A stretch of 30,407 bases of DNA from an uncultured Burkholderiales bacterium (GTDB lineage Bacteria > Pseudomonadota > Gammaproteobacteria > Burkholderiales > UBA6910): contig CAZGTK010000001.1 in the NCBI GenBank assembly GCA_964528415.1, positions 1-30,407 of the forward strand. Reading direction: 5' to 3'. Each line of letters starts with the position of its first letter. The first letter of the stretch is position 1. The translations under genes were made by a program, and so were the position numbers. This document shows positions 4,939 to 17,918 of this stretch, piece by piece. The notes beneath the pieces were generated by a model, which had not been told where the DNA came from, did no database searches, and saw only the letters and a list, made by a program, of their open reading frames with translations.

Positions 4939-5190
4939 ATGGACCAGATCGCCCGCACGCCCGAGCAGATCGGGGCCGCCGTCCGCCGCCGGCGCAAGCA
5001 GATGGCACTTTCGCAGGAAGACCTAGGTGAGCGCATCCGGCTCCGCCAGGCGACGATTTCCAAGCTCGAAGCCGGGGAGCCCGGCACGCGCCTCAAGACG
5101 CTGCTCGATGCGCTGACTGCGCTCGGCCTCGAGTTGGTCATCCGCCCGCGAACCACCGTAACGCCCGGCGAGATCGAGGACATCTTCTGA
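4939..5190 (+). CDS. hipB: HipB-like XRE-family antitoxin
   Basis: 83 aa with XRE HTH (LSQEDLGERIRLRQATISKLEAG); TGA overlaps the hipA ATG. Confidence 0.88.
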   Translation: MDQIARTPEQIGAAVRRRRKQMALSQEDLGERIRLRQATISKLEAGEPGTRLKTLLDALTALGLELVIRPRTTVTPGEIEDIF

Positions 5191-6509
5191 TGGCGGGGCG
5201 CCGCAGGACGCACGTTCCGCTGGATGTCTTTCTGAACGGCCGTCTCGTCGGCCGGCTGCGCCGCGAGCCCGGCGGCGCGATCGACTTCCGCTACGCCGAC
5301 GACTGGCTGTCGTGGGAGAGCGCCTTCCCGGTGTCGCTGTCGCTGCCGCTGCGCGAGGACCGCTACATCGGCGCGCCGGTCGTCGCGGTCTTCGACAACC
5401 TGCTTCCCGACAACGACGACATCCGCAGGCGGCTTGCCGCGCGCACGGGCGCGGGCGGCATCGATGCCTTCAGCCTCCTCGGCGCCGTCGGCCGCGACTG
5501 TGTCGGCGCGCTGCAATTCCTGCCCGAGGGCGAAGCCCCTCCCCATCCGGAAGCCGTGTCCGGCCGCGCGCTGAGCGACGGGGACGTGGCGGCGATCCTG
5601 GGGGATCTCGCGCAGGCGCCGCTGGGCGTCACGGCCGAAACCGAGTTCCGGATCTCGCTTGCCGGCGCTCAAGAGAAAACCGCGCTTCTGTGGTGGAACG
5701 GCGCTTGGCACATTCCGCACGGCGCAACGCCGACGACGCACATCCTCAAGCCGGAAATCGGCAGACGGGGTGACGTGGATCTCAGCGACAGCGTCGAGAA
5801 CGAGCACCTCTGCATGAGGATCGCGAAGGCGGCGGGACTGCCCTGCGCGGAAACGCGCATTGCGGCATTCGGCGGCACGCGCGCTCTGGTGGTCGAGCGC
5901 TTCGATCGCCGCTGGACCAGGGACGGGCGCCTGCTGCGTCTGCCGCAGGAGGATTGCTGTCAGGCGCTCGGCGTTCCGCCCTCGCGGAGATACGAGTCCG
6001 ACGGCGGACCGGGCATCGCGCAGATTCTGCAACTGCTGAAGGCGAGCGACGAGCCCGAGGTCGATCAGCGCCTGTTCCTGAAGGCGCAGGCGCTCTTCTG
6101 GCTGCTCGGCGCCACGGATGGCCACGCGAAGAACTTCAGTCTTCACCTGCTGCCGGGCGGCCGTTTCCGCATGGCGCCGCTCTACGACATCATGTCCACG
6201 CAGCCCTACGTGGACGCAAAGCAGCTACGCGACAACCAGTTCAGGCTCGCGATGGCGGTGGGACAGAACCGGCACTACAACGTCGAGGAAATCTTCCCGC
6301 GCCACTTCGAGCAAAGCGCGGCGGCGGCAGGCGTCGGCGCGGCGATGGTCGCCGATGTGATGCAGGACCTGGCGGGCACGCTGCCCCACGCCGTCGACGA
6401 AGTCGCGCGCTCGCTGCCGCCGGACTTTCCGGAGCGCCTCGTCCAGAGCATCGCGGCGGGCGTGGAACGGCGTCTGCGGCGGATCGATGGAGCGGCTCAC
6501 GGCGGGTGA
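5190..6509 (+). CDS. hipA: HipA-family Ser/Thr kinase toxin
   Basis: N-terminal coupling domain (PVSLSLPL, FDNLLPD), P-loop ISLAGAQEK, HILKP, ENE, catalytic DGHAKNFS, APLYD. Confidence 0.93.
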   Translation: MAGRRRTHVPLDVFLNGRLVGRLRREPGGAIDFRYADDWLSWESAFPVSLSLPLREDRYIGAPVVAVFDNLLPDNDDIRRRLAARTGAGGIDAFSLLGAVGRDCVGALQFLPEGEAPPHPEAVSGRALSDGDVAAILGDLAQAPLGVTAETEFRISLAGAQEKTALLWWNGAWHIPHGATPTTHILKPEIGRRGDVDLSDSVENEHLCMRIAKAAGLPCAETRIAAFGGTRALVVERFDRRWTRDGRLLRLPQEDCCQALGVPPSRRYESDGGPGIAQILQLLKASDEPEVDQRLFLKAQALFWLLGATDGHAKNFSLHLLPGGRFRMAPLYDIMSTQPYVDAKQLRDNQFRLAMAVGQNRHYNVEEIFPRHFEQSAAAAGVGAAMVADVMQDLAGTLPHAVDEVARSLPPDFPERLVQSIAAGVERRLRRIDGAAHGG

Positions 6510-6675: not shown

Positions 6676-7908
6676 CTATCGAACACCGATCTCGGGAAAC
6701 AGACCTGGCATCCAACGGGATGCCAGAGCGGCGGGAAAGGCAAGGCGCAGCGGCGCGCGCGTACTCTCCGATGTGAGAACTCCGCAGTCCAGCAGCGCCG
6801 AAGTGATTCGGCGCGCCTGGCGCTCACCCGTGCCGACAACGCTTGTCGCATCCGCGCGAGGCAGTTCCCCGCGATAGAGCACTGCTTCGAGGATGCTGCC
6901 CGACTTGGGCGGCAGATGATCGAGCCTGATTTCTTCTTCTGCCCATAGCAGGATTCGGGCGCGCAACTTATCCGGCTGCATCAGTCTCTCCATGAAGGTG
7001 ACTTGATCGATACACGTGGTCAGAAAGAACGTCGTGAACTCGGCCAGACTCTCCTCGCTCAGATTTCCCCTGCCATCGAGGTCGTTGCGCCTTTGCTGAT
7101 CGCAGGCAGCAAGGTTGTGCTTGTAGTCGGCGACGTTGCGCGCAAGACCGCGAGCGATGGACCATACCGCCCCTGTGTCGAGAACATCGAGAAGGGTTGC
7201 GTGAGAAATCAGCCGGGCAACGCGACCATTGCCGTCAAGAAACGGGTGAATCCAGACCAACCGGTGATGCGCAGCCGCCGCCGCAAGAATGGTCTCGCTC
7301 TTGTTCAGTCTGCTGTAGACCTCTTCATAGCGATTCAGAAAACGCGGCACCGCAACTGGACTGATTGCGATGTGGTCGCCGACCTTGACATCGAGGGTCC
7401 GTAATTCTCCCGGAACGACCTTAATAACTTTCTTCGTGGCATCGTCTTCGGTCCAGAGCAAATCTTCCGGCAGCAACTCGCAAAAGCGACGGTGTACTTC
7501 GCGGATCGAAGCTACGGTGAGGGCGCGGCCCTTGAGTCCGCCGCCATCTATCCATTGTTGAACTGCAATGTGCGCCTGCGCTTCGAGTTGTAGATCGCGC
7601 TTTCTTGCGTCCTTGCTGTAGTCGCCCTTCAGGGCGCGCTCAATATCGACCGGGTGCGTGTCGTGCCCCTCGATGAGATTGCTGTAATAGCAGTTCATCG
7701 ACCGGACAAGATCGGCGAGTGATGCCAGCAGGCTTTCCGGCAGACTGCGGCGAAAGCCGGCGCTTCTCTGCGCAAGCTCGAGCGCGAGGTCGGTCAATGC
7801 GGGGCGATGGCGCTCGCCGAGCAGGAGCGGCTCCATCCTGGAAACCGTCTCTCCGCCGTCTCTGACCGAATTTGTGTCCGCTTTTTTGTCCTGTGCCTTA
7901 TCGTTCAT
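6676..7908 (-). CDS. Fic-family protein (class II-like, internal inhibitory motif) with probable C-terminal winged HTH
   Basis: Fic motif HPFLDGNGRVAR; inhibitory (S/T)xxxE(G/N) motif SNLIEG N-terminal to it; C-terminal RADATSVVGTGERQARRITSALLDCGVL looks like a wHTH. Confidence 0.9.
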   Translation of the reverse strand: MNDKAQDKKADTNSVRDGGETVSRMEPLLLGERHRPALTDLALELAQRSAGFRRSLPESLLASLADLVRSMNCYYSNLIEGHDTHPVDIERALKGDYSKDARKRDLQLEAQAHIAVQQWIDGGGLKGRALTVASIREVHRRFCELLPEDLLWTEDDATKKVIKVVPGELRTLDVKVGDHIAISPVAVPRFLNRYEEVYSRLNKSETILAAAAAHHRLVWIHPFLDGNGRVARLISHATLLDVLDTGAVWSIARGLARNVADYKHNLAACDQQRRNDLDGRGNLSEESLAEFTTFFLTTCIDQVTFMERLMQPDKLRARILLWAEEEIRLDHLPPKSGSILEAVLYRGELPRADATSVVGTGERQARRITSALLDCGVLTSESTRAPLRLAFPAALASRWMPGLFPEIGVR

Positions 7909-8009
7909 AGATGTTTTTTACTCAGAAGCTTAGATTAAGTCAAGAGGCGATAAGGACCACTTAAATGACCGCTTTCAAGGCCGGATTATCCGAGAACACG
8001 GATTATGAT

Positions 8010-8039
8010 TTGACATTGTCAGGTCTTACTGTTTAGAAT
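8010..8039 (+). promoter_or_regulatory. Sigma70-type promoter for the 8060-11796 operon with an overlapping palindrome
   Basis: -35 TTGACA (8010-8015), 18 bp, -10 TAGAAT (8034-8039). Palindrome TGACA-T-TGTCA (8011-8021) overlaps the -35. GGAG precedes ATG 8060. Confidence 0.7.
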
Positions 8040-8059
8040 GCTGACATTGGAGATGTTTC

Positions 8060-8629
8060 ATGAGTGACGGTCCCCATAGAAGTCTTCCGATGTCCCGCTC
8101 TTGGAAGCGGGTCGCCGAGTACGCGGAGAATGAGAATTTCGGGCGCGCTGACATGTGTGCCGCTGCGACCGAGGCGCTTGAGCAAACCTGCCGAAAAAGC
8201 CTCCCTTCGGAGTTGATGGAAGGATTACGCAGCATCTTCCTCGAACAGCAAGCCGGGCTGTTCTCCGACCGGCGTGCCGATTCGCTCGACGCGTTGCGGC
8301 CACTTGCTGCCGGGCACGGAATCGCCAGGCTCCTCCTCGATCACGCGACCTGCGTGGTGCGCGAGGGCGGAGCCGGTGAAAGTGGATTGGTCGAAGCTGC
8401 GGAGCGGATGCTCACGGCCATCGGTGAGACCTTCACGCGCCAGATTGAAGAGCACTACCTGCGTGAGGCGGCACAGCCCCTCGCAAGTCAGGCCATCGGG
8501 CGTGTGGAGAAGGCGCTTGAGGACACCGACAAGCGCGCGCTTGCGCGGCAGCTTTGCGGTCTTGAGGCGGGATCACCACGACGTGCGTCTCTCAAGCACA
8601 AGGACATCGACGACGGGGTGCCACTATAA
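8060..8629 (+). CDS. Hypothetical protein (189 aa, appears mainly helical); first gene of the QueC-like operon
   Basis: ORF with promoter and RBS upstream and a normal protein-like composition, directly followed by the QueC-like gene; no family motif recognised. Confidence 0.75.
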   Translation: MSDGPHRSLPMSRSWKRVAEYAENENFGRADMCAAATEALEQTCRKSLPSELMEGLRSIFLEQQAGLFSDRRADSLDALRPLAAGHGIARLLLDHATCVVREGGAGESGLVEAAERMLTAIGETFTRQIEEHYLREAAQPLASQAIGRVEKALEDTDKRALARQLCGLEAGSPRRASLKHKDIDDGVPL

Positions 8630-8661
8630 ACGCGCTCGTCGAATCCGCTCGCACGGATGCA

Positions 8662-10011
8662 TTGGCGCAAGTATTCGTCGATGTCGTCGAGGCTGGCGCG
8701 AAGGCGCGAACCGGACGGCGGACCTGCGAGATCGATCGCGACCTCACGTTCTCCACGGGTCATCTGGAAAGCTACTGCCTCGCGCAATGGGAGCCGGTCG
8801 TGTACGACGCGCTTGTGTTGTGCGCGGGTGTTGAGTACTGCGATCGCATCTGCCGCCGCCGCACTCACGAGTGGGGACGACGCATCGAACTTCGCGTTCC
8901 GGTGCATGAACCGGAGCGATGGAGCGCGAAGCCTGTCAGCGACGCGCTGCACGCGGCACTCGACTTCCTGACGGGCGATCGCTGGAGTGTTTCGTTCGTC
9001 AAGCGCAGGAAGGCTTTTGTCACTCCCAAGCAGTTCGCCTTCCCGATCCCGAGCGACATCGTGGCGGTCATTCCCTTCAGCGACGGGCTCGACTCGCGTG
9101 CCGTCGCCGGATTGATGCACGAGGAGATGGGCGATCAGCTCATCCGAGTCCGGCTCGGAACTAAGCCCTTCAAGCCGGGCCGCTCCGATGTGAAGCAGCC
9201 GTTCACGTCGGTCCCGTACAAGGTTAGACCGGTCGATAGCAACTTCGTCGAGACGAGCGCGCGGTCGCGCGGCTTCAAGTTCGCGATGGTGAGCGGTCTC
9301 GCCGCCCACCTGGTCGGGGCTCGGACGATCATCGTCACCGAGAGCGGTCAGGGCTCTCTTGGGCCCGCACTCGTGCCGGTCGGACAGACCTACGAGGATT
9401 ACCGCAATCATCCCTTGTACACGGACAGGATGGAGGCGGTGCTCCAAGCGCTTTACGGTCGGAGCATTCGGTTCGACTTCCCGCGTCTGTGGCACACGAA
9501 AGGCGAGACGCTCGCTGCGTTCGTCGCCGGGTGCGCTGATGGACATACGTGGGCCGATACGTGGTCCTGTTGGCAGCAGCCCCGTCAGGTTTCTGTCGTT
9601 GGGCGCAAGCGTCAGTGCGGTATCTGCGCTGCCTGCATGCTCAGGCGCCTTAGCATTCACGCAGCGGGGCTGACGGAGAACCCGGAGACCTACGTCTGGG
9701 AAGACCTTGGCGCTGCGTCGTTCGAAGGCGGCGCGGCAAAAGGGTTCAAGAAGATCACGAAGGCGTTGCGGGAATACGCCATCGCCGGGACGCTGCATCT
9801 GGAGCACCTGGCCTCGCTGCGTCACCGGAAGGCGGCGCAGGGAACGCTCGCGCTGACCGCGCGGCAGCTCGGGCTCTCGCGGGGCATCAGCGAGGCCGAA
9901 ACGCGCACCCGGCTGGATCGCCTTCTCGCGCAGCATGAGACCGAGTTGAAACGATTCCTAGAATCGCTCGGCTCGCAGTCCTTCGTGGCTCAATGGGGAA
10001 AACATCGATGA
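8662..10011 (+). CDS. QueC-like (7-cyano-7-deazaguanine synthase fold) PP-loop protein with QatC-like architecture
   Basis: PP-loop variant IPFSDGLDS; RSRGF; TESG; HP; TKGE; Zn-site WSCW...CGICAACMLRR. N-terminal extension (EYCDR...WGRRIELRVPVHEPERW...LDFLTGDRWSVSF) resembles my recollection of QatC. Start TTG 8662; the frame is open upstream to an ATA at 8626 that overlaps the previous TAA. Confidence 0.82.
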   Translation: MAQVFVDVVEAGAKARTGRRTCEIDRDLTFSTGHLESYCLAQWEPVVYDALVLCAGVEYCDRICRRRTHEWGRRIELRVPVHEPERWSAKPVSDALHAALDFLTGDRWSVSFVKRRKAFVTPKQFAFPIPSDIVAVIPFSDGLDSRAVAGLMHEEMGDQLIRVRLGTKPFKPGRSDVKQPFTSVPYKVRPVDSNFVETSARSRGFKFAMVSGLAAHLVGARTIIVTESGQGSLGPALVPVGQTYEDYRNHPLYTDRMEAVLQALYGRSIRFDFPRLWHTKGETLAAFVAGCADGHTWADTWSCWQQPRQVSVVGRKRQCGICAACMLRRLSIHAAGLTENPETYVWEDLGAASFEGGAAKGFKKITKALREYAIAGTLHLEHLASLRHRKAAQGTLALTARQLGLSRGISEAETRTRLDRLLAQHETELKRFLESLGSQSFVAQWGKHR

Positions 10012-11195
10012 CCGATACGCCACTCAGCCAGATTGCCCTAGCCGATCTTGGCGAACGCCTTCGCGTCGCGCGTGAGAACGCGAGCTTCAGGCAGAAGGAT
10101 GCCGCCGAGGCGATCTCCGTTGCCCGTACCACCTTGGTCGCCATCGAGCAAGGCCAGCGCCGCGTGCGCATGGATGAGCTCCAGCATCTTGCGAAGCTCT
10201 ACAAGACCTCGGTTAATGCGATCCTGCGAAGGGAGGCCGTACATGTCGATCTTGCCCCCCGGTTTCGCAAGCTGATCGGCGGCGACGATCTTGCCGCCTT
10301 CAAGGCAACCGAACTGCTCACCGATCTTGCGCGCGCCGAAGTCGAGATTGAAAACCTCCTCGGCATCACGCGCACGCGCAACTACCCGCCTGAGCGCCCG
10401 ATCCTTCCGGGCGACGTGCGCGCGCAGGCCGAGCAGGACGCGATCGAGCTGCGGCAGCGGCTCGGGCTGGGATTCGCCCCGGTGCATGACATCGTGACCC
10501 TGCTGGAAATGGAGATGGGCGTGCGCGTCTACGTGCGCCGAATCGACGGCAGTATTTCCGGCGTGTTCGCCTACGACGACAATCTGGGGGCGTGCATGCT
10601 GCTCAATGCGAATCATCCGCGTGAGCGGCGCAACCAGTCTGGCGGACATGAACTCGGGCACCTTGTTTCTGTGCGCCGCGAACCGGAAGTCCTGCATTCG
10701 AGCGAACCTGAGACGACGCGCGAGGAGCGTTACGCGGCGGCCTTCGCCCGCTCGTTCCTCACGCCCGCGGGAGCCGTCCGGCAGAAGTTTCAGGAGGTTA
10801 CGGCGGGATCGACGCGCCTCACCCGCCGTCATGTCATCGTGCTCGCGCACTTTTTCGGCGTATCGCGCGAGGCGATGGTCCGCAGGCTTGAAGAGCTTGG
10901 ACTTACGAAGAAGGGCACGTGGGACTGGTTCGAAGCAAACGGCGGCATCACGGACGAGCAGGCTCGGCAGGTGCTCGGCGATCTGCGCACGCCGGACCAG
11001 TACAAGGCGCAGGCCGACCGTCCGACGACCCTCAAGCTGAACCTGCTTGCAGCCGAGGCTTATCGACGCGAACTGCTGAGCGAAGGGCAGCTTGCGCGCC
11101 TGCTGCGGCTTGACCGGATCGAGCTGCGTGACCTGCTGAGCGATCTGGAATCGCAGGAGGAAGAAGCCGATGGGGCTCCGAACCTCCTTGTCTGA
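10008..11195 (+). CDS. XRE HTH fused to ImmA/IrrE (M78) metallopeptidase, with a C-terminal UPF0175-like segment
   Basis: N-terminal HTH (LRVARENASFRQKDAAEAISVARTTLVAIEQG), HELGH (HExxH), downstream ERYAAAFARSFLTP, C-terminal AEAYRRELLSEGQLARLLRLDRIELRDLL. ATG 10008 overlaps the QueC-like TGA (ATGA). Confidence 0.88.
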   Translation: MTDTPLSQIALADLGERLRVARENASFRQKDAAEAISVARTTLVAIEQGQRRVRMDELQHLAKLYKTSVNAILRREAVHVDLAPRFRKLIGGDDLAAFKATELLTDLARAEVEIENLLGITRTRNYPPERPILPGDVRAQAEQDAIELRQRLGLGFAPVHDIVTLLEMEMGVRVYVRRIDGSISGVFAYDDNLGACMLLNANHPRERRNQSGGHELGHLVSVRREPEVLHSSEPETTREERYAAAFARSFLTPAGAVRQKFQEVTAGSTRLTRRHVIVLAHFFGVSREAMVRRLEELGLTKKGTWDWFEANGGITDEQARQVLGDLRTPDQYKAQADRPTTLKLNLLAAEAYRRELLSEGQLARLLRLDRIELRDLLSDLESQEEEADGAPNLLV

Positions 11196-11796
11196 TGACG
11201 ACCGCGTTCTGGTCGCCGACACGAGCACGATCATCAATCTCAACGCCACCGGCTGCGCCGCAGACATCCTGAACGCGTTGCCGTGCCGCGTCGTGGCAGC
11301 CGATTCTGTGCGTGAAGAGCTTGAGAACGGCCGGGCAAGAGGCCGCAGCGACGCCGCCAGTTTCGAGGCGCTTGTCGGCGGCGGACATATTCAAATGGTG
11401 AGCCTCGGCGACCAGGGCCTGCTGCACTTCGAGGGACTCGTGATCGGTGCGGCAAGCGACACCCTCGACGACGGCGAGGCGGCAACGATCGCCTTTGCGG
11501 CGCAGGCAGGCGCGGTTGCGCTGATCGATGAGCGCAAGGCGCTTCGCCTGTGTGCCTCGCGTTTCCCGGCCCTGCGGCTGGCAAGCACCGTCGATGTCCT
11601 TGCGCATCCCGCAGTGCTGGGCGTGCTCGGCGCGAGCGCGCTTGCCAATGCCGTTTTCAACGCCCTTGCTCGCGGGCGCATGCGTGTCTTGCCGCATCAC
11701 ATCGACGGAGTCGTCGAACTGATCGGCCCGGGGCGCGCGGCTCAGTGCATCAGTTTGCCTCGTGAGACTCGCAGCGCCCACCGCGTCAAAGCTTGA
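11170..11796 (+). CDS. PIN-domain nuclease (DUF3368/COG2405-like)
   Basis: Acidic PIN residues in context: VLVADTSTII, REEL, LDDGEAATIA, LIDERKA; overlaps the end of the upstream gene by 26 nt. Confidence 0.8.
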   Translation: MGLRTSLSDDDRVLVADTSTIINLNATGCAADILNALPCRVVAADSVREELENGRARGRSDAASFEALVGGGHIQMVSLGDQGLLHFEGLVIGAASDTLDDGEAATIAFAAQAGAVALIDERKALRLCASRFPALRLASTVDVLAHPAVLGVLGASALANAVFNALARGRMRVLPHHIDGVVELIGPGRAAQCISLPRETRSAHRVKA

Positions 11797-11907
11797 GCCG
11801 CGGTCGTTCTACTCCCGCATAACGCCCACTTGAAAATGAACCGGGATGGTCGTCCAGCCCTGGATGCGAGCTAAGTCGGTCAGTGACAGTATTTGCTTCG
11901 TCCTCCT

Positions 11908-13128
11908 TCATGCAGCGACCACCTCCGCGACTGAGGCATCGGCGGACCTTAAGTTCCCAGTGAAGGCCTGGGCCAGGAGCGCCTGAAAGGTCGCCTCGGA
12001 CTTTCTTTGGGCTTCGGCCTGTTGCGCAACGATGCCAAGGACAGAACGGCTGCGCTCCTCGAAGCGCCTTTGCGCATCAAGAGGCGGCAGCGGCACGGGG
12101 AACGCCTTGAGTTCCTTGCTGTTGATGTTGGCCTGACCGATTGCGCCGCGTGCGGTGTCGTAGAGGATCCGCTTCATGTGGCGGGTGTTCATGAAAGCCC
12201 ACAAATAGAACGGGCAAGTCTTCGAATCGTCTGCACGGAGTCGGATGAAGTACGACGCGGCGACGGCATCCATGCCGCTGTCCCAAAGCCCGGTCTTGCC
12301 GACAAGCTCTTTGCTGTTCGTCCGGTTGAAGAGAAGGTCGCCCTTCTCAAGGCTGTACCGTTCGGCTTCGTTCGGCTTTAACTCGACATACTTGAGGTCT
12401 GACAGGTCAAGGCTACCATCATAGGTGACATTGCCCATCCGGATCAGCGGAAGCCCAGCACCGGTCTCGGAGGCCTTCGTGCTGCTGCCGTAGTCGGCAG
12501 CAAGGAGAACGTCGCCCATCGGCGCAATCGGCCACCCCTTCGGATTCGTTGCAGGGTCGCCGAACATGTCGAGGAAGAGCGCCGGGATGATCTCGGCGGT
12601 TTTGGCTTGGGCCTCGCGTCGCAGCCGGACAATTCCTTCCGCGCGGGACAGCAGGTCGACGATGCGTCGCTGCTCGTCGACGCCGGGAAAGCAAATGATG
12701 AATTTTCGTAAGGTGCCCCGGGCGATCTCTTTAAAGGTCGTCCCGCCTGCGTGCTGAATCATCCTATCCCGCTGAGTTCTGAGCCAGTAGGCCAGAAACT
12801 CTGGAACGAGGTCTTCGCCGCATACGAAGTTAACGAAACCCTGATTTGTGCAGATAGGTACTTGGGCGACAGCCGTGTAGCCAATCGTCGCTCGGCTTGT
12901 GAGAAGCACGGCGCCGGGCGGAAGTAACTTTGTCGAGCTATTGTTTAGTCCACTTTCGGTGATGGTTTCCTTCGTTCTATTGATGTAAAGGCCTTCGAGC
13001 GCTGTTACATCCGTAGGGGTCGCCCAACAATATTTGCCGCCGAAGTGGCTCGCCTCCTGCCTAGATGGTGTCCCGCCACCGCAGATCTCGGCGACCTCCT
13101 CCAGCCGTGCGGTACGCCACCCGTTCAT
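11908..13128 (-). CDS. hsdS: Type I restriction-modification specificity subunit
   Basis: Two TRDs (GGGTPS...TSRATIG...TNQGF; DYGSS...FNRTNSKELVGK) with conserved-region repeats EQRRIV / FLDMFGDP / LDAQRRF / FQALLAQAFTG; overlaps the hsdM stop. Confidence 0.93.
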   Translation of the reverse strand: MNGWRTARLEEVAEICGGGTPSRQEASHFGGKYCWATPTDVTALEGLYINRTKETITESGLNNSSTKLLPPGAVLLTSRATIGYTAVAQVPICTNQGFVNFVCGEDLVPEFLAYWLRTQRDRMIQHAGGTTFKEIARGTLRKFIICFPGVDEQRRIVDLLSRAEGIVRLRREAQAKTAEIIPALFLDMFGDPATNPKGWPIAPMGDVLLAADYGSSTKASETGAGLPLIRMGNVTYDGSLDLSDLKYVELKPNEAERYSLEKGDLLFNRTNSKELVGKTGLWDSGMDAVAASYFIRLRADDSKTCPFYLWAFMNTRHMKRILYDTARGAIGQANINSKELKAFPVPLPPLDAQRRFEERSRSVLGIVAQQAEAQRKSEATFQALLAQAFTGNLRSADASVAEVVAA

Positions 13129-14747
13129 GCCGCTTCACCGAGCGCCGCGCGCAGCGCTTCCACTTCTTCCAAGATCTCAGCCTCGATTGCGGCCAGTTCG
13201 TCGAGCAGCTCGCGCGGGTCGCGATGCTGCACCTGCTGCTGGCTCATGGGGCGATACCGTCCGGCCGAAAGATTGAAGTCGCTCGCGCGCAGGGTCGCTG
13301 CATCCGCGAACCACCATGGAGACGTCCATTCGGCTTTCGGGTCACGCTTTTCCCACGCCTTCAGCCCGGCCTCGCGGTCACGGTACGCGGCGTTCAGTGC
13401 GGGCAGGTCATCTGCCTCGATCGGCTGGTCGTGGTTGGCATCGAGTTTGTAGCCGTCGTTGTCGGCGTGGAGGAAGAGCACGTGCTCGGTCTTGCCGCCC
13501 TTGCGGAAGAAGAGCACCGAGGTCTTCACTCCCGAATACGGCTGGAACACGCCGCCCGGCAGGCTCATCACCGCCTCGACGCGGTTGTTCTCGATCAACT
13601 GGCGGCGCAGCTCCTTGTGCGCCCCAGTCGAGCCGAACAGCACACCCTCGGGGACGATGACTCCGCAACGCCCGCCGGCACGGAGGGAATCCATCATGTA
13701 CTTGAGGAACAGCAGCTCCGTCGCGGTCGTCGTGCCGACCTTCACGTCGTCGACGATGCGGTCCTTGTCGACGCGGCCCGAGAACGGCGGGTTGGCGAGG
13801 ACGACGTGGTAGCGCTCTTGCGGCAGGCCCAGCTCGGCCTTGCGCTCGGCATCGAGGGTCGTCGTCAGCACGTTGCGCAGCAAGATGCGCACGTTCGGCA
13901 GGCCGCGCAGCGTCAGGTTCATGGTCGCGAGCCGGACCATCTTCGGGTCGACGTCGTTGCCGAAGAAGGTCTGGTTCTGGAGCGCCGAGACCTGCGCTGA
14001 CGAGAGCTTGTCGCCGAGGCCGCGCGTCTGCACCTTGCCGTCGATATCGACGCTCTGAATGCCGCCCGGCGACGAATTCGCCAGCCGGATGTGGTTGTAG
14101 GCGGCGACCAGGAAACCCGCGGTGCCCGCGGCCGGGTCGTAGATCGTCTCCCCGATCTTCGGATCGATGATCTCGACAATGGCGCGGATGATGTGGCGCG
14201 GCGTGCGGAACTGGCCGAGCTCGCCCGCCTGCTTGATCTGCTTGAGGACGTGCTCGAAGAGGTCACCCTTGGTGTCAGCGTCGGCGCGGTCGAGGCGCAG
14301 GCCGTCGACCAGCGTCACGATCTGCGTGAGCACCGTCGGCTCGTCGATGCCGAGGCGGGCGCCGTGCATGAAATTGACGGCACCGTTCCCCGCGACGTCC
14401 GTGAAGAACGGGAACACCTCGTCGCGCACAAAGCGCACGAGGGGCTCGCCCGAGAGGCCCTTGGCCCACACCGACCAGCGGAAGCGATCCCTCGGGATCG
14501 TGGTCTCGCCCTTGGCGGGCGCGTTGAGGGGGTTCTTGAGCGTCCAGCTGCCCTTGAAGATGCTCGCGTATTTCTGCTTCAGGACCCTGGCGCGGGCCTC
14601 GTTCTCGGCGTCGATGCCCTCGATCAGATAGAAGAAAAACAGGAACGCGAGCTGCTCGGCGTTGCTGACCGGATCGGGATAGCCGCCGCCGTACAGGTAG
14701 TCGCGGATCTGCTCGATCGAGCGGCGCATCGCGGGCGTCAGGGGCAT
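13125..14747 (-). CDS. hsdM: Type I RM N6-adenine methyltransferase subunit
   Basis: Motif I YDPAAGTAGFL, motif IV LANPPF, GQFRTPRHII, GVIVPEGVLF. Real start taken as MPLTPAM at 14747; the track's extension to 14876 overlaps hsdR and is low-complexity. Confidence 0.93.
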   Translation of the reverse strand: MPLTPAMRRSIEQIRDYLYGGGYPDPVSNAEQLAFLFFFYLIEGIDAENEARARVLKQKYASIFKGSWTLKNPLNAPAKGETTIPRDRFRWSVWAKGLSGEPLVRFVRDEVFPFFTDVAGNGAVNFMHGARLGIDEPTVLTQIVTLVDGLRLDRADADTKGDLFEHVLKQIKQAGELGQFRTPRHIIRAIVEIIDPKIGETIYDPAAGTAGFLVAAYNHIRLANSSPGGIQSVDIDGKVQTRGLGDKLSSAQVSALQNQTFFGNDVDPKMVRLATMNLTLRGLPNVRILLRNVLTTTLDAERKAELGLPQERYHVVLANPPFSGRVDKDRIVDDVKVGTTTATELLFLKYMMDSLRAGGRCGVIVPEGVLFGSTGAHKELRRQLIENNRVEAVMSLPGGVFQPYSGVKTSVLFFRKGGKTEHVLFLHADNDGYKLDANHDQPIEADDLPALNAAYRDREAGLKAWEKRDPKAEWTSPWWFADAATLRASDFNLSAGRYRPMSQQQVQHRDPRELLDELAAIEAEILEEVEALRAALGEAA

Positions 14748-14781
14748 TGCGTCTTCTTCCCTCTCTTTTTTGGGCCCGGAC

Positions 14782-16923
14782 CTACGAGGGTCGAACGTCC
14801 GGGCCGCTGCCGGCGGTCGCGGTCGGGGCTTCCGGCGCGAACACTTCGCCGTTGAGGGCCTCGAGGATCGCTTCAAGCTGATTCAAACCGCCGAAGACCC
14901 GGACCGCTTCCGGCATCCCGCCCATCAGCGTGAACGGGTGGAAGGCGAAGTGCCCGGCGGTGAACTCGTCCATCGTGTCCGCGTTCGCCCGGAGCTGGCT
15001 GCCGACCACGCGCAGCCAGCGCTCCTGGTCGGGCGTGAGGTTGCCTTCCTGGCTCAGTAGCCAGGCCTCGAAGCGCGCGCCAAGGGCGGCCGCCTTGGCC
15101 TCCGAGGCCTCCGGAAACACCATGTTGCCGTCTTCGTCGACCGTGATCCACTCGCGCGTGGTCGGGTCGATGTGGTCGTTGATGTCGAGCGAGAGCAGCC
15201 GGCGCGGTTCGTACTTCTTCCTCGGCCGTTTCTCCGCGACCACGCCGCCTTCGCCGCTCTCGTCCTCGTCGCCGTGGAAGTCGGTGACGCCCACGAAGTC
15301 GAACATGGTGAAGAGCGGCTTGCCCTTGAGCTTACGGGTGCCGCGCCCGCGCATCTGCTGGTAGAGGATCGCCGAGCGCGTGAACCGGGCGAAGACCAGG
15401 TTCACAACCTCGGGGCAGTCGAAGCCCGTATCGAGCATGTTCACGGAGACGAGGATCTGCGGGTACCGCTCTTTCTTGAAGCGCTTGATCTTGGTCATGC
15501 CGTCCACGGTGTCCTCGGCGCCCATGCCGGAGACGACGTAATCGGCGTAGCGGATCTCCGGCGACGGCTTCCTGTCCGCGTAAGCTTCATCGAGCATCTG
15601 CGCGAGCGTCTCGGCGTGGCGCCGGGTCACGGCGAAGACGATGGTTTTGCCGAGAAGCGGCTTGCGGAGCTGGCCCTTCGCGTCCGTGTAGCCTTTCTCC
15701 AGCACGTCGCGGAACTCACGGACGATGGCCCGGTTGCGCTCGGGGATCGTGAACCTGCGCTCCAGCGCTGACGGGTCGATCACGATGCTCTGCTCCGCGC
15801 CGAACAGTTGCTCGAACTCGGCGCGGGTTGCCTTGTCCATCGCGCTCCAGTCCAGCTCGTCGCGCTTGACTTCGAAGCCGCCCTCGGCGGCGGTCTTGAC
15901 GGTCTTGGCCTTGTAAATCTGGTACGGGACGAGGTAGCCGTCGCGGATGGCGTCCTTGAGCTTGTAGCTGAAGGTGGGCTTGTCGACCTCGAAGAAGCGC
16001 AGCGTGTCGCGGATGGCGAGCTTGTCTTCCTCGTCGCCGAAGTCCTCGATATCGGTAATGCAGGGCGTGGCGGTCAGGCCGACCTGAACGCCGTCGAAGT
16101 GCTTGAGCACGCCGCTCCACTTGCCGTAGATCGAGCGGTGGCATTCGTCCGAGATCACGAGGTCGAAGTAACCCGACGAGTATTCGCGATAGATGTTCAC
16201 CATGCTCTGCAAGGTGGTGATGGTGATGCGTTTCTCGTCCTGGAAACGCCGCCCGGCGCGCAGCACGTAGGCCGGAAAGTCCGGCAGGTGCTCGGCGAAG
16301 GCGTCCTCCGTCTGCTTCGCGAGGGGAATGCGATCGACGAGGAACAGAACGCGGGTGATGGCGTTCGCCTCGAACAGGCGTTTGATGAAGGCGGCTGCCG
16401 TGCGGGTCTTGCCGGTGCCGGTTGCCATTTCGACCAGCATCTTGCGCCGCCCGGCGTTGATCTCCCGGCAGAGCGCGTCGATGCACTCAATCTGGTAGTC
16501 GCGCTCGACGATGTGGTGGTCGATGGGAACGGTGAGCGGGTCGCGGCGCACTTGGCCGGTCGCGGCCCGGCGTTCGAGGTCGTCCTGCGCGAAAAAGGTC
16601 TTGATCGGGCGCGGGAAGGCTTCGCGCTGCCACTCCCAGAGGCGGATTTCCTCGCCGTTGGCGAGGAAGATGTACGGCACTCCGAGCTGCGCGGCGTAGG
16701 CCCTGGCCTGCGCTTCGGCTTCCGCCGGGTTGATCGCGGCTTTCTTGGCCTCGATCACGGCGAGCGCCCGCCCGTGGCGGTCGCAGAGCACGTAATCGGC
16801 CTTGGTCCGGTCGGGAAGGACGTACTCGAAGCGCACCGCATTGGGGTTGAGTACATCCCAGCCCCGGTCCTTGAGCTGGGCGTCGATTTTGACGCGCGAG
16901 AAGGCTTCGTTCGTTCCCGGCAT
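14782..16923 (-). CDS. hsdR: Type I RM restriction subunit (EcoAI/EcoEI-like, type IB style)
   Basis: Nuclease motif ADYVL...VIEAKK, Walker A MATGTGKT, DECH, TAT, MLDTGFD, QMRGRGTR; gene order R-M-S. Confidence 0.92.
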   Translation of the reverse strand: MPGTNEAFSRVKIDAQLKDRGWDVLNPNAVRFEYVLPDRTKADYVLCDRHGRALAVIEAKKAAINPAEAEAQARAYAAQLGVPYIFLANGEEIRLWEWQREAFPRPIKTFFAQDDLERRAATGQVRRDPLTVPIDHHIVERDYQIECIDALCREINAGRRKMLVEMATGTGKTRTAAAFIKRLFEANAITRVLFLVDRIPLAKQTEDAFAEHLPDFPAYVLRAGRRFQDEKRITITTLQSMVNIYREYSSGYFDLVISDECHRSIYGKWSGVLKHFDGVQVGLTATPCITDIEDFGDEEDKLAIRDTLRFFEVDKPTFSYKLKDAIRDGYLVPYQIYKAKTVKTAAEGGFEVKRDELDWSAMDKATRAEFEQLFGAEQSIVIDPSALERRFTIPERNRAIVREFRDVLEKGYTDAKGQLRKPLLGKTIVFAVTRRHAETLAQMLDEAYADRKPSPEIRYADYVVSGMGAEDTVDGMTKIKRFKKERYPQILVSVNMLDTGFDCPEVVNLVFARFTRSAILYQQMRGRGTRKLKGKPLFTMFDFVGVTDFHGDEDESGEGGVVAEKRPRKKYEPRRLLSLDINDHIDPTTREWITVDEDGNMVFPEASEAKAAALGARFEAWLLSQEGNLTPDQERWLRVVGSQLRANADTMDEFTAGHFAFHPFTLMGGMPEAVRVFGGLNQLEAILEALNGEVFAPEAPTATAGSGPDVRPS

Positions 16924-16934
16924 GCAGCAGGCGG

Positions 16935-17261
16935 TTAGGCCGGTTGCGGATGGATCGACTTGGCGCCCGACCTCGGTTTGCCTGGCCGGGTCGGCAGGGC
17001 TTTGATCTCGTCGCCGGCTTCCTGCTCGGCCAGGCGGACGTCGTAAAGCGCCTGCAGGTTCATCCAGAATTGCGGGCTGGTGCCGAACCAGTGCGCAAGG
17101 CGAAGCGCGGTATCGCCGGTGATCGCGCGCTTGCCGTTGACGATTTGGGTGATGCGGTTCGGCGGAACGCGAATCTGCCGCGACAGCTCCGTGGGGCTGA
17201 CGCCCAGCCCGTCGAGCTCTTCGGCAAGAACTTCGCCGGGGTGAATGGGGGTACGGGCCAT
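16935..17261 (-). CDS. higA: HigA-family antitoxin (XRE HTH)
   Basis: HPGEVLAEEL, GKRAITGDTALRLAHWFGTSPQFWMNLQ. Confidence 0.93.
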   Translation of the reverse strand: MARTPIHPGEVLAEELDGLGVSPTELSRQIRVPPNRITQIVNGKRAITGDTALRLAHWFGTSPQFWMNLQALYDVRLAEQEAGDEIKALPTRPGKPRSGAKSIHPQPA

Positions 17262-17274
17262 GGTCAGGTGCCTC

Positions 17275-17559
17275 TCAGTGGTAATCCACGATCTCGACGT
17301 TGGAAGGTCCGGCGTGCCCTTCGGGCCACTCGAAGCAGATCCGCCATTGCATGTTGATGCGAATGCTGAACTGGCCCTTGCGCTCGCCCCTCAGAGCTTC
17401 GAGCGCGTTGGACGGCAGCGCCCGGAGGTCCGCGAGGCTGGTCGCCGCCTCAAGGATATCGAGCCGCTTTTCCGCTTGGCTGCGGAAGACCTCGAACTCC
17501 CGGACCCGCTTGCCTTCCGCGAAGTCCCGGGTCCGCTTGTCGCGGTAGCTCAGGATCAT
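17275..17559 (-). CDS. higB: HigB (RelE/ParE superfamily) toxin
   Basis: MILSYRDKRT..., LEALRGERKGQFSIRINMQWRICFEW, VEIVDYH; toxin lies upstream of antitoxin. Confidence 0.93.
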   Translation of the reverse strand: MILSYRDKRTRDFAEGKRVREFEVFRSQAEKRLDILEAATSLADLRALPSNALEALRGERKGQFSIRINMQWRICFEWPEGHAGPSNVEIVDYH

Positions 17560-17567
17560 TTTGCGCG

Positions 17568-17596
17568 AACATAACGCGCGGTACGATGTACGTCAA
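17568..17596 (-). promoter_or_regulatory. Sigma70-type promoter of higBA, 8 nt from the ATG
   Basis: -35 TTGACG (17591-17596), 17 bp, -10 TATGTT (17568-17573), then CGCGCAAA-ATG with no Shine-Dalgarno. Confidence 0.65.
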
Positions 17597-17707
17597 GCGT
17601 AAATGCAGCGGCGGCCGCCCGACGAGGACGGGCGCTTGGGTGCAGCCGGGAACAGGCGCCTAATCGGGCAGGCAGGGGCGCCAGCCCGCGGCTGGCGATG
17701 GGAATCG

Positions 17708-17784
17708 TGGCGCGCCCGGCGAGATTCGAACTCACGACCTTTGGCTCCGGAGGCCAACACTCTATCCAGCTGAGCTACGGGCGC
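17708..17784 (-). tRNA. tRNA-Arg(CCG)
   Basis: 77 nt: GCGCCCGTAGCTCAGCTGGATAGAGTGTTGGCCTCCGGAGCCAAAGGTCGTGAGTTCGAATCTCGCCGGGCGCGCCA; anticodon CCG, T-loop TTCGAA, encoded CCA. Confidence 0.97.
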
Positions 17785-17796
17785 ACGAGGGCGCAA

Positions 17797-17825
17797 ATGA
17801 TAGCTTTTTTCCGTTATTCCGTCCA
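17797..17825 (-). promoter_or_regulatory. Probable tRNA promoter
   Basis: -35 TGGACG (17820-17825), 17 bp, -10 TATCAT (17797-17802), followed by a GC-rich discriminator. Confidence 0.55.
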
Positions 17826-17835
17826 CGGTTAGCCT

Positions 17836-17864
17836 TTGAGCGACGGCCCGCGCGCCGCTATAAT
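17836..17864 (+). promoter_or_regulatory. Sigma70 promoter of the cytochrome c gene
   Basis: -35 TTGAGC (17836-17841), 17 bp, consensus -10 TATAAT (17859-17864). Confidence 0.7.
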
Positions 17865-17918
17865 TCGCGGTTTCCGGCCCGCCGAGCCGACCCCCAAGGA
17901 CAAGGATTCCAACGAACC

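What the first reader, a model, noticed from the sequence alone, without database searches (positions are those of the whole stretch)
8060..11796. Candidate undescribed defence system: unknown protein + QatC/QueC-like enzyme + XRE-M78 peptidase + PIN nuclease
Seen: four co-oriented, tightly packed genes behind one good sigma70 promoter (32-nt gap, then ATGA overlap, then 26-nt overlap), lying between a Fic gene and a type I RM system. The 449-aa QueC-like protein keeps a PP-loop (SDGLDS rather than the usual SGGLDS) and the SC...CGxCxxC Zn site, and has the long N-terminal extension I associate with QatC rather than housekeeping QueC (about 230 aa). No queD/queE/queF/tgt or dpd genes are nearby. 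Known: QueC-fold proteins occur in the Qat (qatABCD) and type IV CBASS anti-phage systems. Qat pairs QatC with a P-loop NTPase (QatA) and a TatD nuclease (QatD); type IV CBASS pairs it with a CD-NTase. None of those partners is present here. Inference: this is a third QueC-based architecture in which an HTH-metallopeptidase is the sensor/regulator and a PIN nuclease is the effector.
Basis: partly seen in the sequence, partly recalled or inferred. Interest (0 to 1): 0.9.

Follow-up and report, generated by a model that had tools for sequence, protein, structure and literature searches.

The report
Qat-like enzyme pair wired to PIN toxin
This is a real, self-regulated four-gene cassette, kept intact in hundreds of bacterial species and on plasmids; it joins a relative of the phage-defence enzyme QatC and its small partner protein to a repressor-protease and a PIN nuclease, and is most likely an unnamed, untested anti-phage system.

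Summary
Four co-oriented genes (8060-11796) lie behind a strong promoter, inside a low-GC island with HipBA, Fic, type I RM and tRNA-Arg.

- **Conservation:** 341 species hold a relative. In the best 80 loci (many phyla) all four genes keep the same order, and 25 plasmids carry the cassette.
- **Gene 2** keeps every QatC signature motif but scores below the QatC cut-off and lies outside the QatC clade.
- **Gene 1** shows no detectable homology to QatB. Its N-terminus, MSDGPH..W, is near-invariant at protein level, and it is predicted to bind gene 2 (0.89; best control 0.01).
- **Gene 3** joins an XRE HTH, an M78 peptidase (HExxH in 75/78) and a weak UPF0175-like tail.
- **Gene 4** has a PIN fold and matches PADLOC candidate PDC-S70.
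- **Operator:** a TGACAnTGTCA palindrome on the -35 box, with a second half-site 30-31 nt downstream, is conserved across phyla. It occurs once in the assembled (71% complete) genome.
- **Deazaguanine supply:** 18/50 host genomes lack canonical QueC and 11/50 also lack QueD, so a host-made deazaguanine substrate is doubtful.
- **This copy:** the usual ATGA junction between genes 1 and 2 is ATAA, so gene 2 has lost its ATG.

No paper I searched describes the cassette. Earlier follow-ups in this scan reported it on more than ten other genomes. Function is inferred, not tested.

The parts
8010..8052 (+). Promoter and operator. The -35 box TTGACA (8010-8015) lies inside the palindrome TGACATTGTCA (8011-8021). 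The -10 box TAGAAT is at 8034-8039. A second half-site TGACA at 8042-8046 lies 31 nt after the first, and the SD GGAG is at 8049-8052.
   Evidence: Promoter scan, 11/12 matches. The palindrome is present in 72 of 80 upstream regions, and the second TGACA lies 30-31 nt downstream in 75 of the 76 loci where both sites were found. The palindrome occurs once in the window and once in the whole 3.18-Mb assembly. Binding by the g3 HTH is inferred.
8060..8629 (+). g1: a 189-aa all-helical protein with a near-invariant N-terminus MSDGPH(R/K)SLPMxxxW. It is the predicted partner and probable substrate of g2 (a QatB analogue).
   Evidence: Present upstream of g2 in 79 of 80 loci. The N-terminal motif is invariant while overall identity is 26-52%. 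Synonymous codons vary freely at Asp3, Gly4 and Pro5, so selection acts on the protein. The model has pLDDT 87.5 and no PDB fold match. hhalign against QatB gives probability 1.4%. The complex with g2 scores 0.89 against a best control of 0.01.
8662..10011 (+). g2: a QatC-family QueC-like PP-loop enzyme, 449 aa from TTG 8662. The ancestral start corresponds to ATA 8626, which would give 461 aa.
   Evidence: NCBIfam QatC 117 bits against a cut-off of 280, and QueC 17 bits against 150. PDB QatC 9vlk at E 9e-16. All QatC signature motifs are shared, but the T-x-T substrate dyad is replaced by EDYRNHP. It lies outside the 100/100 QatC clade. Among relatives the PP-loop is kept in 78/79 and the Zn motif in 79/79. 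The start-codon change is shown.
9993..11195 (+). g3: a 400-aa fusion of an XRE HTH (about residues 18-82), an M78/ImmA-IrrE peptidase (about 147-305, HELGH at 218-222) and a C-terminal UPF0175-like domain (about 351-384). The likely start is ATG 10008, overlapping the g2 stop.
   Evidence: Pfam Peptidase_M78 at 1.6e-12, HTH_31 at 1.7e-10, and UPF0175 at 7.5e-5 (below its cut-off). PADLOC RmrA at 2e-25. HExxH is kept in 75 of 78 relatives. It is the most conserved of the four proteins (mean pairwise identity 66%). In 401 genomes of the phylum it was found only in the two that also hold g2.
11170..11796 (+). g4: a 208-aa PIN-like nuclease (COG2405/DUF3368 type, PADLOC PDC-S70) with a helical C-terminal extension. 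It is the presumed toxin/effector.
   Evidence: PADLOC PDC-S70 at 3e-12 over the whole model. The model has pLDDT 95.7. Its top PDB matches are VapC/PIN toxins, probability 1.0, TM 0.6-0.69. The acidic residues D17, E50, D100, D101 and E103 are invariant, and D120 and D142 are kept in at least 90%. Distant relatives hit Pfam DUF3368 directly.

Best explanation
The locus is one copy of a mobile, self-contained four-gene immunity or conflict cassette that shares its core with the Qat anti-phage system. 

What the sequence data show or predict: 
- One promoter carries a conserved palindromic operator. 
- g1 and g2 are predicted to form a QatB-QatC-like complex. 
- g2 keeps the ATP (PP-loop), Zn and QatC-specific motifs. 
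- g3 is an intact repressor-peptidase fusion. 
- g4 has a PIN nuclease fold. 
- The four genes are inherited as one unit. 

Inferred mechanism: 
1. In the resting cell g3 binds the operator through its HTH and keeps expression low. Its C-terminal UPF0175-like domain holds the g4 PIN nuclease inactive. 
2. The g2 ligase holds g1 by its conserved N-terminal tail. On infection it modifies that N-terminus (Ser2 after Met removal), by analogy with Cap9 acting on the CD-NTase and the proposed QatC action on QatB. 
3. The changed g1-g2 state, or the infection signal itself, switches on the M78 peptidase. 
4. The peptidase cleaves g3. The operon is derepressed and the PIN nuclease is freed, which stops growth or phage replication. 

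The acyl substrate is probably not host 7-carboxy-7-deazaguanine. 

In this particular copy g2 has lost its ATG (ATGA became ATAA). It must start at ATA 8626 or TTG 8662, so its expression may be low.
For: - **Conserved as a unit:** 341 species hold a relative, and the order g1-g2-g3-g4 is kept in all 80 best loci. It is also kept in relatives at 32-38% identity. Pairwise-identity matrices of the four proteins correlate at r 0.72-0.87. In a 401-genome sample of the phylum, g3-like proteins were found only in the 2 genomes that also hold g2.
- **Translational coupling:** the g1/g2 junction is NTGA in 61/79 loci, and a Shine-Dalgarno site for g2 is embedded in the last codons of g1.
- **Operator:** conserved across phyla and unique in the assembled genome.
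- **g1-g2 complex:** score 0.89 against a best control of 0.01; the mark was reached by 58 of 80 solved complexes and by 2 of 110 mismatched pairs. The interface uses the g1 tail (residues 5-12) and, on g2, the QatC-signature motifs, the 238-244 loop and the C-terminal helices. These correspond to the elements described for QatBC (PMC13279940).
- **g1 N-terminus:** conserved at protein level.
- **g2 motifs:** all QatC signatures are shared.
- **g3:** HExxH is conserved.
- **g4:** PIN fold and conserved acidic residues. A preprint reports phage protection by one PDC-S70 representative.
- **Context:** immediate neighbours are Fic (8/62), HipA (5/62), AbiE, OLD/UvrD-type ATPases, RM and mobile-element genes. 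None of these TA, Abi or RM families appeared among the 25 most frequent families in 60 control ORFs from the same genomes (a few transposase/integrase genes did). The cassette sits between or beside type I RM genes in several loci and in the window. It is on 25 plasmids, 14 of them conjugative.
- **Deazaguanine supply:** 18/50 hosts lack canonical QueC and 11/50 also lack QueD, including closed chromosomes.
Against: - No experiment exists for any member of the cassette family. 
- The chemistry of QatC itself is unresolved, and it has not been reconstituted in vitro.
- g1 has no detectable homology to QatB and carries Ser, not Gly, at position 2.
- The complex model did not confidently place g1 residues 1-4, and no contact with the PP-loop was listed.
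- The link from g1-g2 to the peptidase is pure inference. ImmA, IrrE and CapP-type peptidases usually respond to DNA damage or other signals. 
- The UPF0175 match of g3 is below Pfam's cut-off.
- The neighbourhood comparison is descriptive, without a formal statistic. 
- In the window copy the g2 start codon is damaged, so this copy may be partly disabled. 
- Absence of QueC/QueD was scored with two models only, and QueE was not searched.
Confidence: 0.55

Rival explanations
1. Two functional layers rather than one signalling chain. The g1-g2 pair is a minimal Qat-type defence unit that acts on its own, as QatBC alone does against some phages. g3 is a CapH/CapP- or ImmR/ImmA-like stress switch plus antitoxin. 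It senses DNA damage or a phage product directly, derepresses the operon and frees the PIN nuclease, which acts as a second, independent effector.
For: QatB and QatC alone protect against phage lambda-vir. M78 peptidases of the ImmA/IrrE type are known to cleave HTH repressors in response to stress signals, and HTH-DUF955-PIN was predicted to be a self-standing three-component TA. g3 hits capP/capH and RmrA models. A single operator controls the whole operon.
Against: In the 401 genomes sampled, the g3 clade was found only together with g2. g2 and g3 have the most strongly correlated divergence (r 0.87). One natural g2-g3 fusion exists, although on a single contig. If the halves were independent, shuffling would be expected, and none was seen in 80 loci.
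Confidence: 0.27
2. An addiction (post-segregational killing) module of plasmids and genomic islands with no role against phages. The PIN toxin and the labile repressor-antitoxin stabilise the element, and g1-g2 modulate antitoxin stability.
For: The cassette is on 25 plasmids and in islands next to other TA modules such as HipBA, Fic and AbiE. The g3-g4 half has TA architecture.
Against: The nearest characterised relatives of g2 (QatC, Cap9) act in phage defence. One PDC-S70 PIN was reported to be protective. The cassette is embedded in or next to RM operons. Four genes, including an ATP-dependent ligase, are more than a plain addiction module needs.
Confidence: 0.12
3. g2 is a metabolic 7-cyano-7-deazaguanine synthase, as RefSeq annotates its relatives, and the neighbours are unrelated.
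For: RefSeq and IMG name the relatives '7-cyano-7-deazaguanine synthase'. The Pfam QueC match is above its cut-off over the C-terminal third.
Against: TIGR00364 scores 17 bits against a cut-off of 150. The canonical QueC substrate motifs are replaced. The host has its own canonical QueC elsewhere. QatC does not complement a queC deletion. 11 of 50 hosts lack both QueC and QueD. Linkage to g1, g3 and g4 is strict.
Confidence: 0.02

Closest known systems
QatABCD anti-phage system, specifically its minimal QatB-QatC core (Gao et al. 2020; PMC13279940, PMC13376578, PMC13639016)
   Same: g2 shares every QatC-specific motif: D49 (QatC D63), D..R..W.R, TGDxW..F, the PP-loop, R.R...F, E.G, HP, P....TK and C..CGxCxxC..RR. 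It also has the N- and C-terminal extensions. A small helical protein encoded just upstream is predicted to bind g2 through its N-terminal tail, the g2 loop and the g2 C-terminal helices, as in QatBC. A nuclease gene is part of the operon.
   Different: There is no QatA (KAP NTPase) and no QatD (TatD). g1 is not detectably homologous to QatB, is about 80 aa shorter, and starts MSDGP, not MGTS. g2 scores 117 bits against the QatC cut-off of 280 and lies outside the QatC clade. The T-x-T dyad is replaced, and the PP-loop reads S(D/E/N)G in this clade. The cassette adds a repressor-peptidase and a PIN nuclease and has its own operator.
Predicted three-component TA: Xre HTH - COG2856/DUF955 (M78) peptidase - PIN of the COG2405/DUF3368 family, with UPF0175 antitoxins (Makarova 2009, PMC2701414; Matelska 2017, PMC5499597); RosmerTA (RmrA) is a tested relative of the antitoxin type
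   Same: g3 is an HTH-M78 fusion with HExxH, followed by an overlapping PIN gene. g3 carries a UPF0175-like segment, and that family is reported only next to COG2405 PINs.
   Different: Here the pair is never seen apart from the QatC-like pair. HTH, peptidase and the UPF0175-like part are fused in one 400-aa protein. g4 does not hit the RmrT models.
PADLOC candidate PDC-S70 (single-gene PIN nuclease found by guilt-by-embedding)
   Same: g4 matches a PDC-S70 model end to end at E 3e-12. One PDC-S70 gene was reported to reduce plating of T4, T5 and T7 (preprint 10.1101/2024.09.26.614923).
   Different: PDC-S70 is defined as a single gene. Here the PIN is the last gene of a four-gene operon and has a 60-aa C-terminal extension.
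Type IV CBASS Cap9 (QueC-family) deazaguanylation of the CD-NTase N-terminus (10.1101/2025.04.06.647259)
   Same: A QueC-fold ATP-dependent enzyme is paired with a protein whose extreme N-terminus is conserved. This is the only member of the fold with known protein-modifying chemistry.
   Different: There is no CD-NTase and no Cap10 TGT. Cap9 is about 185 aa and keeps the QueC Y-x-D substrate residues. g2 is 449 aa and of QatC type.

Membership tests
QatABCD | QatC: QueC-like protein reaching the NCBIfam NF041925 cut-off (280 bits) | tested here: not met
   117.2 bits. All signature motifs are nevertheless present. It lies outside the 100/100 QatC clade.
QatABCD | QatB: helical protein with a long disordered tail that starts MGTS (essential Gly2) | tested here: not met
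   g1 starts MSDGP. hhalign against 7 QatB sequences gives probability 1.4%. There is no PDB fold match. Functional analogy is supported by the predicted complex.
QatABCD | QatA KAP-family NTPase and QatD TatD nuclease in the operon | tested here: not met
   No QatA or QatD hit for any of the four proteins. The flanks are Fic and hsdS. True Qat loci fetched for comparison do carry QatB and TatD.
Type IV CBASS | CD-NTase plus a short Cap9 and a Cap10 TGT | tested here: not met
   No such hits in PADLOC or Pfam.
Canonical QueC | TIGR00364 at or above 150 bits, with the YxQxHxxE, VPxRN and YPDC motifs | tested here: not met
   17.2 bits. The motifs are absent. The genome has a separate canonical QueC at 190 bits.
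Xre-COG2856-PIN three-component TA | HTH fused or adjacent to an M78 peptidase with HExxH | tested here: met
   Pfam HTH_31 and Peptidase_M78. HELGH is present, and HExxH is kept in 75/78 relatives.
Xre-COG2856-PIN three-component TA | Downstream co-transcribed PIN-like nuclease (COG2405/DUF3368) with acidic active-site residues | tested here: met
   PIN fold, conserved acidic residues D17, E50, D100, D101, E103, D120 and D142, DUF3368 hits in relatives, and a 26-nt overlap with g3.
Xre-COG2856-PIN three-component TA | Toxicity of the PIN and neutralisation by the HTH/antitoxin protein | not testable with these tools
   Needs expression experiments.
RosmerTA | RmrA antitoxin (HTH + Zn peptidase) with an RmrT toxin | tested here: inconclusive
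   g3 hits 16 RmrA models, the best at 2e-25. g4 hits no RmrT model, only PDC-S70.
PADLOC PDC-S70 | Match to the PDC-S70 PIN models | tested here: met
   E 3.3e-12, covering 3-157 of 161 profile positions. The PADLOC system rules themselves were not run.

The most novel reading that the evidence does not exclude
A QatC-type ligase writes a mark that is not made from host 7-deazaguanine onto the N-terminal Ser of a dedicated small protein. This N-terminal mark is the signal that makes a repressor-peptidase-antitoxin fusion cut itself and release a PIN nuclease. That would be a protein N-terminal-modification switch driving a protease-gated toxin. It would also reveal what QatC-family enzymes do downstream of their partner.
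Probability: 0.25. Interest if true: 0.8.

Novelty: new variant of a known kind. Interest (0 to 1): 0.65.

Why it matters
Three structural papers in 2026 left open what QatC does to QatB and how that stops a phage. This cassette offers a second, widespread natural context for the same enzyme family.

- The downstream parts are explicit: a peptidase, a repressor with a defined operator, and a PIN nuclease.
- The partner's tail is short and near-invariant (MSDGPH).
- Many hosts lack the queuosine precursor pathway.

Together these make two questions directly testable by mass spectrometry and genetics: whether the substrate is a deazaguanine, and how an N-terminal mark is read out.

There is also a practical point. 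Hundreds of RefSeq proteins annotated '7-cyano-7-deazaguanine synthase' are mis-named. Defence-finding tools would report this locus only as fragments (a sub-threshold QatC, an RmrA-like protein, PDC-S70).

Tried and rejected
1. **CATASP relationship of g1.** Only the window's copy hits the model, at 20.8 bits (below the cut-off), and it is 1 of 57 relatives. I treat it as spurious.
2. **g1 as a QatB homologue.** hhalign gives probability 1.4% and Foldseek against the PDB finds nothing below E 0.4. I do not know whether the fold library already holds QatB.
3. **A shared 'D-G-x-P/L' peptide motif at the g1 N-terminus, g1 C-terminus and g3 C-terminus.** This was rejected for the two C-termini. 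The g1 'DDGV' tail uses Gly codons GGA or GGG in 63/66 loci followed by GTG, which forms the Shine-Dalgarno site of g2. The 'DG' in the g3 tail contains the overlapping ATG of g4. Only the N-terminal motif is selected at protein level.
4. **att-type direct repeats of the tRNA-Arg 3' end marking the island ends.** None was found.
5. **Phage-borne copies.** tblastn of g3 against 50,697 phage records found no match.
6. **ESM Atlas look-up of g1.** It returned nothing.
7. **Other operator sites.** There are none in the window or in the assembled genome.
8. **RNA evidence.** Only DNA metagenome runs hold the stretch.
9. **My first literature search** was badly phrased and returned noise.

Full report
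**1. What is in the window**

The window has about 70% G+C, but 7-18 kb drops to 57-66%. That stretch holds:
- a hipB-like HTH ORF and hipA (4939-6509);
- a Fic gene (6676-7908, minus strand);
- the four flagged genes (8060-11796, plus strand);
- a type I RM operon, hsdS, hsdM and hsdR (11908-16923, minus strand);
- tRNA-Arg(CCG) (17708-17784).

The promoter TTGACA-18-TAGAAT at 8010-8039 matches 11 of 12 consensus positions. The same stretch is present, nearly identical, in sludge and wastewater metagenomes from four studies, so it is not an assembly artefact. The host assembly is a 71%-complete MAG of 650 contigs.

**2. The four proteins**

*g2 (449 aa)* is a QatC-family enzyme, not housekeeping QueC.
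- NCBIfam QatC scores 117 bits (cut-off 280). QueC TIGR00364 scores 17 bits (cut-off 150).
- PADLOC QatC matches at 2e-31.
- The solved QatC 9vlk matches at 9e-16 over residues 48-340.
- I aligned it with seven true QatC proteins that I fetched together with their MGTS-QatB and TatD neighbours. It shares every motif published as QatC-specific (PMC13329287): D49, D..R..W.R, TGDxW..F, the PP-loop, R.R...F, E.G, HP, P....TK and the Zn site with RR.
- Three things differ. The T-x-T pair that is essential in QatC is replaced by an invariant YEDYR.HP in the window's clade. The second PP-loop residue is D, E or N instead of G (78/79 keep the loop and 79/79 keep the Zn site). About 50 extra residues sit in the C-terminal extension.
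- In a tree, QatC is a 100/100 clade on a long branch and the cassette enzymes lie outside it. Whether they are its sister group or paraphyletic to it is unresolved.

*g1 (189 aa)* matches no family.
- A CATASP hit below the cut-off is spurious, since only 1 of 57 relatives shows it.
- Its model is confident (pLDDT 87.5) and all-helical, with no PDB match.
- A profile comparison with QatB finds nothing (probability 1.4%).
- Its first 15 residues, M-S-D-G-P-H/Y-R/K-S-L-P-M-x-x-x-W, are almost invariant in 79 loci. The rest of the protein is only 26-52% identical.
- Asp3, Gly4 and Pro5 use all their synonymous codons. Ser2 uses only AGY codons (78/79), and AGY cannot change to TCN without passing through another amino acid. 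Selection is therefore on the peptide.
- This parallels the conserved MGTS...P..W tail of QatB, which inserts into the QatC active site.
- A complex prediction of g1 with g2 scored 0.89 against a best control of 0.01. That mark was reached by 58 of 80 solved complexes and by 2 of 110 mismatched pairs. The counts hold only roughly, because my own alignments were used.
- The interface joins g1 residues 5-12 and helices 80-154 to g2 residues 68-74 and 97-108 (the QatC-signature motifs), the 238-244 loop and the C-terminal helices 368-402. The loop and the C-terminal helices are the elements that bind QatB in the crystal structures.
- Residues 1-4 were not confidently placed.

*g3 (400 aa)* is a three-part fusion.
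- It has an XRE HTH, an M78 (ImmA/IrrE) peptidase with HELGH and a REERYA motif, and a C-terminal stretch with a sub-threshold UPF0175 match.
- PADLOC sees it as an RmrA-type (RosmerTA antitoxin) and CapP/CapH-like protein.
- HExxH is kept in 75 of 78 relatives.
- It is the most conserved of the four proteins.

*g4 (208 aa)* is a PIN-like nuclease.
- It has no Pfam hit, but it matches PADLOC PDC-S70 end to end.
- Its model (pLDDT 95.7) matches VapC/PIN toxins at probability 1.0.
- D17, E50, D100, D101 and E103 are invariant, and D120 and D142 are kept in at least 90% of relatives.
- Distant relatives hit DUF3368. UPF0175 antitoxins are reported only next to this PIN family.

**3. Conservation as a unit**

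- A scan of one genome per species found relatives of g2 in 341 species. In the best 80 loci (Proteobacteria, Acidobacteriota, Verrucomicrobiota, Planctomycetota, Chloroflexota, Bacteroidota, Spirochaetota and others), g1, g3 and g4 are present in the same order in 79, 80 and 77 loci. Every absence is at a contig end.
- Relatives down to 32% identity, the weakest of the 150 listed cluster representatives, keep the same four genes. So do plasmid copies at 38% identity.
- The divergences of the four proteins are tightly correlated, with r 0.72-0.87 and the highest value for g2-g3.
- In 401 genomes sampled from the phylum, 7 have true Qat (plus one broken copy) and 2 have this cassette. g3-like proteins (E at or below 1e-15) occur only in those 2.
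- One 847-aa g2-g3 fusion exists, but on a single contig.

**4. Regulation**

- The upstream DNA is conserved across phyla. TGACAnTGTCA overlaps the -35 box in 72 of 80 loci, a second TGACA lies 30-31 nt downstream in 75 of 76, and GGAG and the start codon follow.
- In the window the palindrome is at 8011-8021. It is the only copy in the window and in the whole assembly.
- The simplest reading is autorepression by the g3 HTH. This is an inference.

**5. A feature of this copy**

- In 61 of 79 loci the g1 stop and the g2 start overlap as NTGA (ATGA in 44). A purine-rich GG(A/G)GTG in the last g1 codons serves as the Shine-Dalgarno site.
- The window alone has ATAA. The g1 stop is kept, but the g2 ATG has become ATA (8626). 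The first canonical start is then TTG 8662, with no good SD.
- Contigs of four runs from four studies, including a slightly diverged strain, agree at this position.
- The rest of g2 is intact. Expression of g2 may be reduced here.

**6. Context**

- I scanned the nearest ORF on each side of the cassette in 31 loci. The most frequent families were Fic (8), HipA (5), DUF4172 (4; often fused to Fic proteins, from memory), AbiE/AAA_21, AAA_15/DUF2813/UvrD, type I R subunit, transposases and a relaxase.
- In 60 ORFs taken at a fixed arbitrary coordinate in 20 host genomes, none of those TA, Abi or RM families appeared among the 25 most frequent families. The list was mostly housekeeping genes, with a few transposase or integrase genes and one DNA methylase.
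- The Fic and HipA neighbours are not orthologues of the window's genes. The association is therefore with a kind of neighbourhood, not with one ancestral island.
- In L074, L075 and L077 the cassette lies between hsdM and hsdS.
- It is on 25 plasmids, 14 of them conjugative, next to AbiE and E2/ThiF genes.
- It was not found in phage records.

**7. Substrate**

- The window's genome has a canonical QueC and a QueD elsewhere.
- Of 50 host genomes, 18 lack a QueC above the cut-off, and 11 of those 18 also lack QueD. These 11 include several closed chromosomes.
- QatC has also lost the deazaguanine-binding residues and could not be made to react with CDG in vitro.
- Host-made 7-carboxy-7-deazaguanine is therefore an unlikely universal substrate. 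QueE was not searched, and some of the genomes are MAGs.

**8. Interpretation**

- The g3-g4 half belongs to a kind predicted long ago: the Xre-COG2856-PIN three-component TA (PMC2701414, PMC5499597).
- The g1-g2 half works like QatBC but fails the membership tests for Qat. It has no QatA or QatD, its partner is not QatB, and its enzyme scores below the cut-off.
- I could not find the combination in any paper: the three QatBC structure papers, the QueC-family survey (where only about 34% of 'QatC-cluster' genes have qatA or qatD neighbours), and searches combining QueC with ImmA, PIN or DUF3368.
- RefSeq calls the four genes hypothetical protein, 7-cyano-7-deazaguanine synthase, XRE regulator and hypothetical protein.
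- A preprint reports that one PDC-S70 PIN gene protects E. coli B from T4, T5 and T7.
- Earlier follow-ups in this scan described the same cassette on more than ten other genomes, with the same reading. I re-tested the main points independently.
- Points I did not see in those notes: the codon-level evidence for the N-terminal motif, the explanation of the two C-terminal 'motifs' by overlapping translation signals, the uniqueness of the operator in the genome, the control for the neighbourhood, and the start-codon lesion of this copy.

**9. Verdict**

The feature is real and intact apart from the g2 start codon. It is an undescribed variant of a known kind of system. The mechanism I propose is a ligase-partner complex coupled to a self-cleaving repressor-antitoxin and a PIN toxin. 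It is plausible, and no step of it has been tested.

Noticed in passing
window 4939-6509: A HipBA-type toxin-antitoxin pair: an 83-aa ORF whose sequence reads like an Xre/HipB HTH, overlapping a 439-aa HipA kinase (Couple_hipA + HipA_C) in an ATGA-type junction. It sits at the left edge of the low-GC island.
   Followed up: partly
window 6676-7908 (minus strand): A 410-aa Fic/DOC protein is divergent from the cassette promoter. Non-orthologous Fic genes are the nearest neighbour of the cassette in 8 of 31 other loci, and HipA in 5. The recurrence is unexplained beyond 'TA/defence neighbourhood'.
   Followed up: partly
window 11908-16923 (minus strand); L074, L075, L077: A type I RM operon (hsdS, hsdM, hsdR) lies directly downstream. 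In three other loci the cassette sits between hsdM and hsdS, the kind of embedding known for PrrC-type defence genes (from memory).
   Followed up: partly
window 7000-18000; tRNA-Arg(CCG) at 17708-17784: A low-GC island (0.57-0.66 against about 0.70) ends at the 3' side of a tRNA-Arg gene. I saw no integrase-sized recombinase ORF and found no direct repeat of the tRNA end.
   Followed up: partly
L098:816-3359 (P0186): An 847-aa natural fusion of the QatC-like enzyme with the HTH-M78 protein. It is flanked by a 204-aa g1-like ORF and a 157-aa ORF. It is on a single Logan contig, so a sequencing frameshift cannot be excluded.
   Followed up: partly
own genome G000:C146:1717-2262 (L082): A second QueC-like ORF (90 bits, below the QueC cut-off of 150), besides the canonical QueC on C534. 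I did not look at its context.
   Followed up: no
L094/L097 (G266:C4:6354-7495): A true QatC gene in another genome of the phylum is interrupted by an in-frame TAA, so it is probably a pseudogene.
   Followed up: no
L099:2091-3221 and L100:1982-3112: A stand-alone DNA polymerase III beta-clamp gene and a sigma-54 activator lie just upstream of a distant copy of the cassette.
   Followed up: no
window 9935-9964: A weak promoter-like site (ATGAGA-18-TAGAAT, 9/12) inside the 3' end of g2, upstream of g3. It could be an internal promoter for the g3-g4 pair. I did not check its conservation.
   Followed up: no
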